The translations under genes and the position numbers were made by a program. The notes under the pieces are model-generated. The model was given only the letters and a program-made list of their open reading frames with translations. It did not search any database and was not told the DNA's origin. Below, piece by piece: positions 10,621-42,808 of a DNA stretch of 64,000 nucleotides (positions are counted from its first letter, which is position 1; each line of letters starts with the position of its first letter). Location: positions 96,316-160,315 of the forward strand of contig CADANX010000002.1 in the NCBI GenBank assembly GCA_902789425.1, in the 5' to 3' direction. The DNA is from an uncultured Erysipelotrichaceae bacterium (lineage in GTDB: Bacteria; Bacillota_I; Bacilli_A; RF39; UBA660).

Positions 10621-10631
10621 GATTTTTTTCT

Positions 10632-10659
10632 TTGAATTTAGTTTCTATTATGTTATAAT
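10632..10659 (+). promoter_or_regulatory. promoter of giant surface-protein gene copy 1
   Basis: TTGAAT (10632-10637), 16-nt spacer, TGTTATAAT (10651-10659). The leader TTATTATAGTAGGAGAGTGTA carries the AGGAG SD (10671-10675). Confidence 0.6.
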
Positions 10660-10684
10660 TTTATTATAGTAGGAGAGTGTAAAA

Positions 10685-13600
10685 ATGAAAGATGTATTAA
10701 AAAAGAATAAAACTATAATTGTTTCAATAATTTTATTAGTATTTATGTTAAGTTTATTAATGATAAATAATAGAATTAATGTAAAAAAATATGATGGAGT
10801 TGTTAAAGTTAATGAAGTAAAAATTAATACTAAAGGCTCTAGTACAGAAAAGGAAATTATAAAGAAAGATGATAAAGAAGTAGTTAAAGAAAAAGAAACT
10901 ATTTCTTCTTATAGTGTTTTAAAATATAAAATTAATTATAAGTTAGAAACTGAAGGAAACACTAAAAGAGATGCTCTAATTTATGTTAATTTAAAAGACG
11001 AAGATAAAAAATATATAGTAATTAAAGATATTAATGAAAATAATATTTCTTCTAAGATGAATGGTAATACATTTGAAATATTAGTTAAGAATGTAGAAAC
11101 AAATATCAATCATTCTTTAGAAATAGAAGTAACAATTAATAATGCTCCTAATGGATATAAATTCTCTCCAGAAATTGTAGTAAAAGAAAAAACTAGTCCT
11201 GAAACTAAAAAATCAGTAAATCCTGTTGAAGTAAAAACTACTTCACTTGAAGGATTTATTAAAACAACTGATGGTAAGGTCGCTAAAAATATTGAAGTAA
11301 AAGCATGCATAATTGATAAAGATGTTTGTTTAAACGAAAAAATAACATATACAGACGAAAATGGTAAATATGTATTTAGTAATTTAGATGAAGGCGTTTA
11401 TAGAATTATTTTACCTGATGGTTATATAGTTGATGAAAACGAAGCAAATGTAGATACTGGAAGTAATGAACTTAATATAGTATATGATCAAAAAGGAAGA
11501 TTTTCAGCAAGTATTAAAAAATACTTAGAAAAAGTAAAAATTGGTGATAAAAACTATGATATTGCTAAAAGTCAAAAGGTTGCTATTCCTATTTTAAGCA
11601 AAAACTATATTGTAGCTGATTATGTATTTGATATTGAAAATATTAGTGAAAGTGATGGTTATGTTAAAGTTATTCGTGAAACTATTCCAGAAGGATTTAA
11701 AGTTAGTGATAGTGAAATAAACAAAGATTGGAAAAAAGATGGTAATTATTACGTTAATGACACTTTAAAAAATGATATTTTAACTTCTGGTGAAACAAGA
11801 GAAGTTAGAATTCAAATTGAAAGTACATCTAAAGTAGGCGCTGATGTTTATAAGAATAAAGTAGAAATACTTGGTGAAAGTTACCATACTGTAAGATATG
11901 TTCTTGATGATGAACTCTATAAAGAATTTGAAATAGCTGATGGGGATAAACTTGAAAATTATAAAGTAGAAAAAGAAAACTATAGATTTAGTGGATGGTA
12001 TACTGATAAAAATTACACTAATAAATATAATTTTAATAATTTAGTAACTAAAGATATAACAGTTTATGGTAAACTTATAAATACTGTTATCCCTAAAAGA
12101 AAAATTACATATATGTCTGATGATACAACTATATTTGATGAGAGAGAAATAGATGATGGTGATTGTGCAGAAGATATAGAAGGTCCTGTTAAAGAAGGTT
12201 ATACATTTAAATATTGGAAAAAAGATGGTGAGAAATACTTTGATAGTACTATTTGTAAACCAGTTCACGATGATATTATTTTATATTCAGAAGATGAAAT
12301 TAATAAATATGATGTAAATTATTATATTCCTGGTAGTTTAAATGAAGAAAGTGGCAATTATATTTATACAGGAGTAAATACTAAATATGACGATTTTTCT
12401 TCTAAGGTTGATTATGGAACTAATATAACTAATCCTGGTTCTAAAGAATTAAAGTATTATAACTTTAAAGGATGGTTTAAAGAAGATACTTATGATAATG
12501 AAGTAGAATATCCTTTAGAAATAAAAAATGATACTAATATTTATGGTAAATATCAAATAAAAAAATATACAGTTGAGTTTTATAATGATAGAGCTGATGA
12601 TGAACCATTTAATACGACAGTATTTAATGCAACAACTATATTTACTGCTCCTGAAACAGAAGCTCCAGAAGGATATAAAGTAAAAGGATGGGAATACGAA
12701 GATGGAAGCAATGTAATATTTGGTGATGTTGCAGGTGAAACTTTTGCTGATTATTCGGAAGATGATGTTATTAAAGTATATAGAGTAATTGGTGGAATTA
12801 CATTTAGAGTTAGATATTTAGATTATGATAATGAATTAATAGATGAAAATGCATACGAAGATGTTGAACTATATGATTGGCCAAGCAAACTATATGATTA
12901 TGAAAATATGCTTCATGAGGATAATTATAGAGAAGGATATAGATTTAAAGGATTTACATTTAATGGTGAAGATTTATATAGTACTTATTACGATGGTACA
13001 CATGATTATTTCTCAGATTTATGTATTGATAAAAATGATTGTGTATTAGATTTAATTGCAGATTATGATGATTTATCTAATATGCCTGTTTATGTAGTAT
13101 TTTTTGATAAAATGGGTACTAATGGAATTGAAACACCAAAAGGTGAACTTTTTGATAAAACAAAAATACCTGCATTTACTGGTGTTCCAGGACCTTGGTC
13201 AGGTTATTCACTTCCTAATAGATTTACACCTATTGATTGGTATGAAATTGTTATGGAAAATGGATCTCCTGTATACGGAACTGATGGTTATGAACACTAT
13301 GATGAACCATTTGATTTTGATAATACTGTTATAAATGAAACTACTTATGTAACTGCAGTATATAATCCTTATAAATATATACTTAGATTTAATAAAACAG
13401 ATGATAGCATTCAAGGTGAAATGACTGATCAAATTGCTTATATGAATACAAATGATTATAGTTTTAGTCCATATTCTACACCAAATGAAAGATTATGGGT
13501 TTATCCTAAAAATAATGAATTTGTAAAACCTGGTCACACATTTAAAGGTTGGTCTACAACGCCAGGTGGTGAAATTGAAGTATATAGTGGTAGCAGTATG

Positions 13601-40827: not shown

Positions 40828-40857
40828 GATAAGAAATTAAATTTTCTTATCTTTTTT
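40828..40857 (+). terminator. Rho-independent terminator
   Basis: gataagaaa / tttcttatc stem, 6-nt loop, T6, immediately after the stop codon. Confidence 0.65.
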
Positions 40858-40897
40858 ATAAAAAAATAGGGGATTTCCTTCTTTTATTGCAAATAAA

Positions 40898-40996
40898 ATA
40901 TATGGAGGGTATAGAATGACATTTAAATATAACAAACAACATGGTTTAAAAGATTGTGGTGCCTCTTGTTTATATAATATTATAAGGTATTATAAT
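40898..40996 (+). repeat. 99-nt exact direct repeat, copy 2
   Basis: Identical to 25668-25766. Confidence 0.95.
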
Positions 40997-42808
40997 AAAG
41001 TGGAACAAGTGTATTTGATATAGTAAAAGTATCAAATAACCTTGGTCTTAAATCTTCTGCATATAAATGTGATTTTAAAAACTTACTAAAGTTAAAACTT
41101 CCCATAACAATTCATTTAAAAGTTAATAAAGTATATCCACATTTTGTAATTCTATATAAGATTAAAAATAATAAATTATATATTTTTGATCCTGTAAGAG
41201 GTTATTTAAAATATTCTAAAGAAAAGTTTTTAGAAGAATGGTCTAATATTGTTATTACTTTTGAAAAAACAAATCACATATATAAAGAAGAAAAGAAAAA
41301 TATTCTTTTAAAAAATATAAAGATTAATAAAAAAAGTTCTATTTTAATAATAATTCTTTCTACTATTGTTTCACTCATCTCTATAATAAAACTTATTGTT
41401 CTTAGTAAAATTTTAAATAATTATAATATAAATAACTTGTCATATTTTATTTTTTTATCACTTTTAGAAATAGTATTTAATCACTTGAGAAATAAAATGA
41501 CCATATCTTTTAATAAAGAACTTGATAATAATTTAATGTGTTATATTTTAAAACATATTTTTAATCTTCCACTTAATTATCATCATACTAGACCTGTAGG
41601 TGATATTGTATCTAGAATTTATGATTTGTATTCAATTAAGGATTTTATAAATCAATTACTTTATTTTTATCTATTTATTATTAAATAATTTAAAAGTATT
41701 TTTATTATTTTTAATTATTTCAATTATATTTTTCTTAATATATTATTTATTTAGAGATAGATTAAATGAGTGCATATTTAAAACTAAAGAAAGTCAATCT
41801 GAATCAAATTCAGGAATAATAGAAAAACTTCTCGGTATTGATACTATTAAATATAATGGACTTGAATCTTTATTTTTAAATAAACAAATTAAAAAGTATA
41901 ATTCATATTTAATTGAAGATGAGAAATTAAAAAAATCATACATAATATATAACACTTCTTCATGCGTCATTAAAACTTTGGGCTATATGTTTTTATTTTT
42001 AAGTATTAATTTAAATATTTCTCAAATTATACTTTTTTATTCATTTTTAAATCAATTATATATAATATATGAAAAAATAATTGAAATAGATAATCTAATA
42101 ATTAATTCAAAAACTTCTTATAACAGAATTAATGATTTGTTGGATGCAAAAGAAGAATTTAAAAGTAATAAATACAGTAATGTATATTTAAATGATATTA
42201 TTTTTAAAAATCTCCCATATAAAACTAATAATTTTAATTTAAATATAAGACCTAATGATTATATTTTTATAACTGGTGAAAGTGGAATTGGTAAATCAAC
42301 TATTTTTAAAACATTAGTTAAGGAATATAAAACAAATAATATTTTTTTTAATAATGTACCTATTAGTAAATACTCTTCGTCAGTTATCAGAAATAAAATT
42401 ACATATGTTTCGCAAAATGAATTTATATTTACAGACACAATAAAGAATAATATATTACTAGGTAGAAAAATAGATAAAAACAACTTAAATAAAGCGTTAA
42501 AAGTATCTATGGTTAATGATATTCTTAAAAATAAGAATATAGATTTAGATTATATGCTTGAAGAAGATGGTCATAATATATCAAGCGGTGAAAGACAAAA
42601 AATATTACTTGCAAGATCTCTAGTGAATGATACAAGTTTAATTATCTTTGATGAAACTATGAATGAAATTGATGTAAAAAGTGAAAGAAAAATAATAAAA
42701 AATATTAAAACTGAATACAATAAATCAATTATATTAATTTCTCATAGATTAGATAACAAAGACTTATTTAATAAATTTATAGAAGTAAAAGGAGAAGAAA
42801 ATGAATAA
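40916..42808 (+). pseudogene. C39-peptidase-domain ABC exporter (bacteriocin/double-glycine peptide exporter type), frameshifted
   Basis: The N-terminus has the QHGLKDCGASCL catalytic-Cys motif and the frame stops at 41023. Frame 2 continues SGTSVFDIVK...YPHFVILYKI...FDPVRG (C39 His region) and TM segments up to 41688. Frame 3 is open from about 41670 to 42808 and carries Walker A GESGIGKST, the signature ISSGERQK and Walker B LIIFDE. Confidence 0.85.

What the first reader, a model, noticed from the sequence alone, without database searches (positions are those of the whole stretch)
10625..41736. Diverged tandem duplication of a ~15-kb module: giant surface protein plus membrane-anchored partner plus exporter 5' end
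Segment A (about 10625-25888) and segment B (25889-41736) are collinear. Each has an extended -10 promoter with a ...TATAGTAGGAGAGTGTA leader and a giant ORF (1436 + 2850 + ~65 aa pieces in A, one 4349-aa ORF in B). Each then has a hairpin terminator overlapping the stop, a second ...TTATAGAGTAGG leader and a 588-592-aa single-TM protein. Each ends with a terminator followed by the SD and 5' end of a C39 ABC exporter gene. Protein collinearity is visible by eye from N-terminus to tail, e.g. KRKITYMSDDTTIFDEREIDDGDCAEDIEGPVKEGYTFKYWKKDG vs KRTVTYMEDDTTVFDEKEVDDGECAEDIPGPEKEGYTFNYWKKDG. The copies differ at a large fraction of positions, so this is not a recent or assembly-generated repeat. No transposase or integrase flanks it. 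I cannot assign a function to the giant-protein/partner pair, and its maintenance in two copies suggests a variable surface system.
Basis: seen in the sequence. Interest (0 to 1): 0.78.

Follow-up and report, generated by a model that had tools for sequence, protein, structure and literature searches.

The report
Two stacked giant surface-protein gene cassettes
An uncultured, very AT-rich gut or rumen bacterium carries two diverged side-by-side copies of a gene pair, a ~4,400-residue surface fibre protein plus a membrane-anchored double beta-propeller partner, and the locus varies between strains, so it is a real but fairly ordinary kind of variable adhesin locus.

Summary
The collinear A/B repeat is real. 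The giant proteins align end to end at 39% identity (about 50% N-terminal, 21-30% centre, 35-41% C-terminal). The partners are 48% identical.

- The "pieces" of giant A and the broken exporter are window-specific. Public assemblies of the same sample are otherwise 100% identical but hold five short stretches (35-173 nt) that the window lacks. There, A is an intact 4401-aa ORF and the exporter an intact 657-aa ORF.
- The C39 ABC exporter belongs to an adjacent bacteriocin locus with two GG-leader peptides. Its 5' fragment only marks the cassette junction.
- That fragment has no substitutions against the full exporter over about 410 nt, while the cassettes are about 67% identical. So the stacking is recent or homogenised, not an old duplication that diverged in place.

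A sister strain has one cassette at the same locus. Its giant gene has a replaced centre (28-50% aa identity) between near-identical flanks.

The partner is an undescribed family: a TM helix plus tandem beta-propellers. It sits next to giant genes in many gut Bacilli.

The best reading is a strain-variable adhesin-like surface module. Interest is moderate.

The parts
10632..10659 (+). Promoter-like site of giant A (TTGAAT-16-TATAAT with TG), followed by the leader TTATAGTAGGAGAGTGTA
   Evidence: A consensus match only, not above the shuffle expectation.
10685..23766 (+). Giant protein A. It is 4401 aa when the two missing stretches are restored. In the window it is split by a TAG at 14993 and a frameshift at 23573.
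   Evidence: Pfam Flg_new scores 6e-38.
15230..23250 (+). Hypervariable centre of giant A. It is only 28-50% aa identical to the sister-strain allele, while the flanks are 96-100% identical.
23653..23766 (+). C-terminal sorting-like signal of A: NLRTGN, then a hydrophobic stretch, then KKMVRN.
23754..23780 (+). Hairpin followed by a T run, overlapping the giant A stop codon.
   Evidence: -10.2 kcal/mol.
23838..25616 (+). Partner A, 592 aa: an N-terminal TM helix and an all-beta ectodomain.
25687..25888 (+). Remnant of the C39 ABC exporter gene. In public assemblies it is exporter nt 1-188 fused to nt ~701-903. The window lacks a further 173 nt after 25767.
25887..25915 (+). Promoter-like site of giant B. 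Its -35 element spans the junction with the exporter fragment.
25943..38992 (+). Giant protein B, 4349 aa, intact.
27158..29660 (+). Listeria-Bacteroides (Flg_new) repeat region of B, about aa 406-1240.
   Evidence: 5 stretches, E=5e-34; TIGR02543; internal repeats 942-1183.
30230..38500 (+). Central and C-terminal region of B. It is built of repeated modules of about 350-500 aa, beta-helix-like, with two LamG-like stretches. No Pfam family matches.
38879..38992 (+). C-terminal sorting-like signal of B: GLQTGN, then a hydrophobic stretch, then RKRMN.
39061..40827 (+). Partner B, 588 aa: a TM helix plus tandem beta-propellers.
   Evidence: pLDDT 87.8; Foldseek E about 1e-12 to tandem WD40 proteins.
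40916..42808 (+). C39-peptidase ABC exporter. It is fragmented in the window because 46 nt and 35 nt are missing. It is an intact 657-aa ORF in the public scaffold.
42801..43115 (+). Two small double-glycine-leader peptides (46 and 54 aa), the likely cargo of the exporter.
   Evidence: The leaders were read by eye.

Best explanation
The region holds two paralogous cassettes. Each encodes a ~4,400-residue cell-surface fibre protein and a ~590-residue membrane-anchored partner.

The fibre protein has these parts, in order:
- an N-terminal Sec-type hydrophobic signal;
- beta-sandwich domains;
- about 10 Listeria-Bacteroides repeats;
- about 2,900 residues of repeated beta-helix-like and LamG-like modules;
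- a CnaB-like domain;
- a C-terminal (L/I)-x-T-G motif, then a TM segment and a basic tail.

The partner ectodomain is a tandem beta-propeller.

Inferred function. The giant protein is exported, held at the cell surface by its C-terminus and used for adhesion or surface recognition. The partner acts with it at the membrane, for example as a docking or assembly factor.

Shown. The locus is polymorphic in the population. One haplotype has cassette A' only. The other has A and B stacked. Between strains the centre of the giant gene is swapped between conserved flanks.

The stacked state arose by a recombination whose right-hand junction lies about 900 nt into the neighbouring bacteriocin exporter gene. 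This left a 5' exporter fragment between the cassettes. That fragment still has no substitutions against the full exporter. So either the stacking is recent (two long-diverged alleles or paralogs brought together) or the fragment is kept identical by gene conversion. The 207-nt identical repeat also offers a one-step route to loop out cassette B and regenerate the one-cassette state.
For: - Collinearity and divergence of the cassettes.
- Domains: Flg_new by Pfam and NCBIfam. Internal modules. An AF2 model of the last 949 aa is all short strands, and every top Foldseek hit is a right-handed beta-helix protein. The last ~120 aa match CnaB pilin domains.
- The C-terminal (L/I)(Q/R)TG + TM + basic tail is conserved in A, B, L019 and five distant database homologues.
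- The partner is a TM helix plus a double propeller, with 49 invariant columns including four cysteines.
- Gene linkage. Partner homologues lie next to ORFs of at least 1000 aa in 32 of 38 metagenome loci; of the other six, five are contigs under 5 kb and L053 has giant-B matches at both ends. They also do so in L012, L018, L019 and L023.
- One-cassette haplotype. The same upstream genes, a single 4437-aa giant, an A-type partner and an intact exporter lie on one 40-kb contig and on two other scaffolds.
- Flanks are 99.4% identical between strains and the exporter 99-100%. The centre is 28-50% aa identical.
- The exporter fragment is 207 nt + 203 nt with no substitutions and one 9-nt indel. 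Its internal deletion sits at an AATCTTC microhomology.
- Independent MEGAHIT contigs end exactly k-1 bases into these repeats, as expected if the repeats are real.
Against: - No experiment or expression data exists.
- Adhesion is inferred from domain types only.
- The beta-helix assignment is weak: Foldseek E is at least 0.012, the model pLDDT is 70.8, and no Pfam Beta_helix hit was found.
- The motif lacks the proline of LPXTG, and no sortase gene is in the window.
- The partner family is not always next to a giant gene. In L017, L020, L021 and L024 it follows the prkC-rsgA-rpe operon, and in L011 and L014 it stands alone.
- The direction of change between one and two cassettes is unresolved.
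- The only sequences held that span the whole A-to-B link are the window and one scaffold (SPIRE-style name). Contigs of the other assemblies that I checked break at the repeats.
Confidence: 0.6

Rival explanations
1. An old tandem duplication happened in place and diverged in situ. The exporter fragment is kept identical to the full gene by recurrent gene conversion. The one-cassette strain arose later by deletion between the exporter repeats.
For: - Both cassettes have the same gene order, leaders and hairpins.
- Synonymous sites are saturated across the whole unit (pS about 0.5).
- Recombination within the 207-nt identical repeat would reproduce the one-cassette structure exactly, including its A-type intergenic region.
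Against: - About 410 nt of a non-functional fragment with zero substitutions lies next to DNA that is about 33% diverged.
- Conversion would have to stop sharply at both edges and would have to postdate the internal deletion.
- The sister strain shows that whole-segment allelic replacement happens at this locus. Importing a diverged cassette is therefore at least as plausible.
Confidence: 0.25
2. The tandem arrangement is an assembly chimera. Cassettes A and B belong to two co-existing strains and were joined through the shared exporter sequence.
For: - Short-read contigs break at the exporter repeats.
- The window lacks 173 nt exactly at the A-to-B link.
- A one-cassette strain exists in the same study.
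Against: - In the public scaffold and in the window, cassette B is preceded by the exporter nt ~701-903 fragment joined to the B promoter, a junction absent from any one-cassette layout. By my coordinate reckoning MEGAHIT contig k141_561724 starts inside that fragment, but the part of it that I hold does not reach the junction.
- Only one upstream context and one downstream context were found for the sample.
- The scaffold carries a unique internal junction joining exporter nt 188 to nt 701.
Confidence: 0.07
3. Copy A and the exporter are decaying pseudogenes, so the locus is eroding rather than functioning as a two-copy system.
For: In the window, A carries a nonsense codon and a frameshift, and the exporter is in at least four fragments.
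Against: - All lesions correspond to 35-173-nt stretches that are present in otherwise 100% identical assemblies, where the ORFs are intact.
- Three of the five lesions sit in the repeated exporter pieces. At least two of these (after 25767 and 40996) lie within about 45 nt of observed MEGAHIT contig ends.
- No such gaps occur in the other ~32 kb of the window that I compared.
Confidence: 0.08

Closest known systems
Sortase-anchored giant Gram-positive surface adhesins (the MSCRAMM/Cna-type, LPXTG protein class)
   Same: - Both have an N-terminal hydrophobic signal and long arrays of beta-rich domains.
- Both have a CnaB-like domain just before a C-terminal motif, a hydrophobic segment and a basic tail.
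- Both have strain-variable ligand-binding regions.
   Different: - The motif here is (L/I)(Q/R)TG without proline.
- No sortase is visible in the window.
- Most of the protein matches no Pfam family.
- A dedicated beta-propeller partner gene accompanies the giant gene.
Listeria-Bacteroides repeat (Flg_new, PF09479) 'adhesin-like' proteins of gut microbes
   Same: Pfam hits lie well above the gathering score. Such proteins are reported as enriched in host-associated gut taxa (PMC7883539) and occur in giant Clostridia proteins from mammalian gut metagenomes (bioRxiv 10.1101/2023.11.21.568195).
   Different: Flg_new covers only about 20% of each protein here. The hypervariable part is something else.
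Right-handed parallel beta-helix adhesins (autotransporter passengers such as Ag43, Hap and SepA; phage tailspikes)
   Same: The top structural matches of the C-terminal 949 aa are all of this fold. The architecture is modular and repeated, with DLNG and FNFYDG-type turns.
   Different: The matches are not statistically significant. There is no beta-barrel translocator or TpsB partner, and the organism looks Gram-positive (Firmicutes-type).
Class II bacteriocin loci with a C39-peptidase ABC exporter (ComA, LagD, SunT type)
   Same: The neighbouring gene has Peptidase_C39, ABC_membrane and ABC_tran domains. It is followed by two short peptides with double-glycine-type leaders.
   Different: This locus is a neighbour, not part of the giant-protein module. 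Only its first ~900 nt were caught in the cassette junction.

Membership tests
Tandem segmental duplication | Two adjacent collinear copies in the same orientation | tested here: met
Tandem segmental duplication | A novel junction joining the end of the unit to its start | tested here: met
   Exporter nt ~903 is joined to the upstream region of B at 25888/25889.
Tandem segmental duplication | Similar divergence along the whole unit, as expected if it was copied once and diverged in place | tested here: not met
   The exporter fragment shows 0 substitutions in about 410 nt, against about 67% identity for the genes.
Flg_new / Listeria-Bacteroides repeat proteins (PF09479, TIGR02543) | Profile match above the curated cut-off | tested here: met
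   A scores 129 bits and B 117 bits against a cut-off of 27. TIGR02543 scores 31 bits against 20.95.
LPXTG sortase substrates | Canonical LPXTG pentapeptide | tested here: not met
   The motifs are NLRTG, GLQTG and TIQTG, with no proline. NCBIfam gives no anchor-model hit.
LPXTG sortase substrates | A hydrophobic segment plus a positively charged tail after the motif | tested here: met
   Seen in the A, B, L019, P0010, P0011, P0013, P0014 and P0016 termini.
LPXTG sortase substrates | A cognate sortase encoded in the genome | not testable with these tools
   There is none in the 64-kb window. The rest of the genome could not be reached. A sortase seen in strain 2 belongs to an ICE-like insert with a SpaA pilin.
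Right-handed beta-helix (pectin-lyase fold) adhesins | Fold match to solved beta-helix proteins | tested here: inconclusive
   AF2 pLDDT is 70.8. The top 15 Foldseek hits are beta-helix proteins, but E = 0.012-0.3 and TM is below 0.25. Pfam gives no hit.
WD40 / tandem beta-propeller proteins (the partner) | Two consecutive propeller domains | tested here: met
   AF2 pLDDT is 87.8. Foldseek gives E = 1e-12 and probability 1.0 to tandem WD proteins such as Utp21 and to the BT4663/BT4673 ectodomains.
WD40 / tandem beta-propeller proteins (the partner) | Sequence membership in a described repeat family (WD40, PQQ, WG_beta_rep and the like) | tested here: not met
   No Pfam or NCBIfam hit.
C39-peptidase bacteriocin ABC exporters | Peptidase_C39, ABC_membrane and ABC_tran domains in one protein, with GG-leader peptide genes adjacent | tested here: met
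   Precomputed Pfam hits on the intact 657-aa ORF of the public scaffold. ABC_tran on the window fragment. The peptides are MNKLNQKQMKNIKGEG... and MKKLNKEEMILINGSG..., with leaders judged by eye.

The most novel reading that the evidence does not exclude
The giant fibre protein and the membrane-anchored double beta-propeller form a dedicated, so far undescribed two-component surface-display system of uncultured gut and rumen Bacilli. The propeller would act as the docking or assembly factor, or as a co-receptor. The conserved C-terminal (L/I)-x-T-G signal would define its own sorting route. Cassette stacking and looping-out through the exporter repeats, together with swaps of the central region, would provide population-level surface variation.
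Probability: 0.22. Interest if true: 0.62.

Novelty: new variant of a known kind. Interest (0 to 1): 0.4.

Why it matters
Giant surface proteins are among the least understood genes of uncultured gut and rumen bacteria. They probably decide what these cells stick to. This locus offers three things:
- a clean natural example of how such genes vary: one versus two cassettes, and a centre swapped between near-identical flanks;
- a recurrent link to an unannotated beta-propeller protein family, with 132 clusters among 1.84 billion representatives, that could be tested as an accessory factor;
- a conserved non-LPXTG C-terminal signal.

It also warns that the apparent pseudogenes in this window are most likely assembly joins.

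Tried and rejected
- The search for homologous proteins on full-length giant B timed out.
- The same search on the C-terminal 949 aa gave only eight weak partial hits and not even the protein itself. On the N-terminal 400 aa it gave nothing. The breadth of the giant family therefore comes only from tblastn on fetched loci.
- A PDB sequence search with giant B found nothing.
- Pfam at E up to 5 on the central 2,900 aa gave only noise-level hits: Laminin_G_2 at 0.064 and Bactofilin at 0.22.
- Rfam found no RNA family in 10000-44000.
- The strict terminator scan found none. The hairpins were shown by folding instead.
- An exact search for the exporter/B-promoter junction in metagenome contigs found nothing.
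- dN/dS is uninformative because synonymous sites are saturated (pS about 0.5). Only the contrast between the N-terminus (about 0.5) and the centre (about 1) is worth noting.
- I rejected the idea that the C39 exporter exports the giant proteins. They have ordinary N-terminal hydrophobic signals, and the exporter has its own GG-leader peptides.
- I rejected a mobile-element origin. There is no integrase or transposase in or beside the cassettes.
- I tested whether the window's deletions coincide with the strain recombination breakpoints. They lie 250-300 nt away, so they do not.
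Full report
SETTING

The window has 17-28% GC and nearly all genes are on the + strand. The housekeeping genes are Firmicutes/Bacilli-like: RecD2/YrrC, YceG, RuvX, IreB, trigger factor, and SpoIIM just beyond the window end.

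Upstream of the finding lie cell-envelope genes: GT2 glycosyltransferases, a CDP-glycerol glycerophosphotransferase, a flippase, an acyltransferase, and VTC, DUF4956 and CotH proteins. Downstream lie a bacteriocin-type locus and then core genes.

The same DNA occurs in public metagenome assemblies of sample SAMEA5383960, including a 321-kb scaffold. The sample naming suggests a cattle-rumen data set; that is my inference and I did not check it.

- Giant A is 10685-23766 and giant B is 25943-38992. They are collinear over their whole length.
- They are 47% identical over the first ~1,700 aa and 31% over the last ~720 aa.
- One alignment covers 9-4337 vs 8-4286 when composition correction is switched off.
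- Global identity is 39%, with a trough of 21-30% in the middle.
- The partners (23838-25616 and 39061-40827) are 48% identical.
- DNA identity of the collinear blocks is about 67%.
The promoter-like matches are no more frequent than in shuffled AT-rich sequence.

THE 'PIECES' OF COPY A AND THE BROKEN EXPORTER ARE PECULIAR TO THIS WINDOW

The window is 100% identical to the public scaffold and to MEGAHIT contigs of the same sample, except that it lacks five stretches:
- 78 nt after 14993
- 46 nt after 23573
- 173 nt after 25767
- 46 nt after 40996
- 35 nt near 41661

No such gaps occur in 1-14993 or in 46642-64000.

With the stretches restored, A is one 4401-aa ORF and the exporter one 657-aa ORF. 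That is how they were called in those assemblies.

Three of the five gaps lie in the repeated exporter pieces. At least two of these (after 25767 and 40996) lie within about 45 nt of the observed ends of MEGAHIT k=141 contigs; the third lies near a contig end I only reckoned, not observed. I therefore read all five as assembly joins, not as pseudogenisation. I cannot prove this without reads.

THE EXPORTER FRAGMENT IS A JUNCTION SCAR

The gene after cassette B is a Peptidase_C39 / ABC_membrane / ABC_tran exporter. Two short peptides with double-glycine-type leaders follow it. That is a class II bacteriocin locus.

Between the cassettes the public scaffold carries two exporter pieces:
- exporter positions -19 to +188;
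- fused at a 7-nt AATCTTC microhomology to positions ~701-903.

This is followed directly by the B promoter region, at the 25888/25889 junction.

The two pieces are 207 nt and 203 nt long. They show no substitution against the full exporter, only one 9-nt indel. Just upstream, the partner 3' ends and the intergenic DNA are strongly diverged (52/77 and 83/92 identical).

A unit that was copied once and then diverged to 67% identity cannot leave a dead fragment unchanged. Either the stacking is recent and brought together two long-diverged versions, or the fragment is homogenised by gene conversion.

THE LOCUS IS POLYMORPHIC

A sister strain is represented by one 40-kb contig and two scaffolds from other samples. 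It has the following features:
- the same upstream genes at 99.4% nt identity;
- a single 4437-aa giant gene, an A-type partner (dN 0.01) and an intact exporter that is 99-100% identical.

Its giant protein compares with A as follows:

| Region of A | aa identity to sister-strain allele |
|---|---|
| up to about aa 1480 | 96-98% |
| about aa 1680-4120 | 28-50% |
| last ~280 aa | 81-100% |

The nucleotide breakpoints lie near window 15230 and 23250.

So three deeply diverged versions of the central region exist (A, A' and B), and cassette number varies. Recombination within the 207-nt exporter repeat would convert the two-cassette state into exactly the observed one-cassette state. The direction of change is not resolved.

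WHAT THE PROTEINS ARE

Giant proteins:
- Each starts with a basic and then hydrophobic N-terminus.
- Weak CarboxypepD_reg / SdrD_B-like beta-sandwich signals occur near aa 190-260, and Flg_new (Listeria-Bacteroides) repeats from about aa 400 to 1240.
- The remaining ~2,900 aa match no Pfam or PDB sequence.
- That region contains repeated modules starting near aa 1436, 2398, 2855, 3230 and 3604 of B.
- An AF2 model of the last 949 aa (pLDDT 70.8) consists of short strands.
- Its best Foldseek matches are all right-handed beta-helix proteins: SepA, IgA1 protease, Ag43, Hbp and tailspikes. They are not significant (E at least 0.012).
- The last ~120 aa resemble CnaB-type pilin domains, with probability 0.6-0.84.
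- The sister-strain allele carries a precomputed Laminin_G_3 hit.

C-terminal signal:
- Both giants, the L019 giant and five distant database homologues end the same way.
- The ending is hydrophobic residues, then (L/I)-(Q/R)-T-G, about 6 residues, a TM segment and a basic tail.
- This has the form of a sortase sorting signal but lacks the LPXTG proline.

Partner:
- It is predicted with high confidence (pLDDT 87.8) as one TM helix plus tandem beta-propellers.
- It has 49 invariant columns, including four cysteines.
- It matches no Pfam or NCBIfam model.

THE PAIR IS A RECURRENT MODULE

- The partner family is small: 9 clusters in the word-indexed search, and 132 clusters at E up to 1e-3 among 1.84 billion representatives.
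- It occurs in MAGs labelled uncultured Bacilli, Erysipelotrichaceae, 'Tenericutes' and Clostridium sp. CAG:433.
- In 32 of 38 metagenome loci, an ORF of at least 1000 aa lies next to the partner gene. Most are cut by the locus end at 2,500-3,300 aa. Of the other six, five are contigs under 5 kb; the sixth (L053, 18 kb) has giant-B matches at both ends instead. Many of these loci are redundant.
- Many of these giants share 27-36% identity with B aa 78-726 and 1040-1676.
- Gene order varies: partner(s) before the giant (L012, L018, L023), or giant-partner-giant (L019).
- The link is not obligatory. Other family members follow the PP2C / PASTA-kinase / RsgA / Rpe operon (L017, L020, L021, L024) or stand alone.

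MECHANISM: SHOWN VERSUS INFERRED

Shown:
- the paralogy of the two cassettes;
- the junction anatomy;
- the polymorphism in cassette number;
- the replacement of the centre between strains;
- the folds and domains listed above;
- the gene linkage between partner and giant.

Inferred:
- Sec export;
- surface anchoring through the C-terminal signal, by sortase or as a plain TM anchor;
- an adhesive or recognition role for the variable beta-helix/LamG-like region;
- cooperation of the propeller partner at the membrane;
- selection for surface diversity as the reason for keeping two cassettes.

Flg_new-rich proteins have been discussed as adhesion factors of host-associated gut microbes (PMC7883539) and occur in giant gut Clostridia proteins (bioRxiv 10.1101/2023.11.21.568195).

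VERDICT

This is a real feature. It is a strain-variable giant adhesin-like locus, which is a known kind. Two less familiar aspects are the conserved beta-propeller partner family and a non-canonical C-terminal signal. Interest is moderate.

Noticed in passing
window 14993, 23573, 25767, 40996, ~41661: The window lacks 78, 46, 173, 46 and 35 nt relative to public assemblies of the same sample that are otherwise 100% identical. These gaps create every apparent pseudogene lesion in the region. Three of them sit in the repeated exporter pieces, and at least two of those lie close to observed short-read contig ends.
   Followed up: yes
window 40916-43115; L025 11849-14062: This is a class II bacteriocin locus: a C39 ABC exporter plus two GG-leader peptides. 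The first peptide is conserved in the sister strain apart from its last residues. The second peptide is replaced.
   Followed up: partly
L025 14096-21779 (sister strain, downstream of the bacteriocin genes): The sister strain carries an ICE-like insert absent from the window. It encodes ParB_N, a 927-aa SpaA-type pilin, a sortase, SSB, an HTH regulator, a T4SS pilin and DUF8208.
   Followed up: no
L017, L020, L021, L024 (about 4800-11850 in each): Partner-family genes sit directly after a conserved radical-SAM / PP2C / PASTA Ser-Thr kinase / RsgA / Rpe operon. This suggests that the family has a general cell-envelope role beyond the giant proteins.
   Followed up: partly
L012 1452-5207; L023 8082-11827: Two tandem partner paralogues precede a single giant gene. 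So duplication of the partner alone also occurs.
   Followed up: no
window 49514-51280: The alanyl-tRNA synthetase ORF is only 588 aa. It has the catalytic domain and tRNA_SAD and appears to lack the usual C-terminal part. It is called the same way in the public assemblies.
   Followed up: no
window 6001-9613: A VTC-domain protein, DUF4956 and a CotH-kinase protein with CHB_HEX_C / lamin-tail domains form a cluster just upstream of the cassettes. A 310-aa ORF with no family match follows at 9666-10598.
   Followed up: no
L018 3229-4251: A collagen-repeat protein with a BclA C-terminal domain (exosporium-type) lies between a partner homologue and a giant gene in Clostridium sp. CAG:433.
   Followed up: no
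giant B, window 25943-38992: The word-indexed protein search did not return the query's own protein for segments of giant B, and it timed out on the full length. Absence of hits for these giants in that tool is therefore not evidence of rarity.
   Followed up: partly
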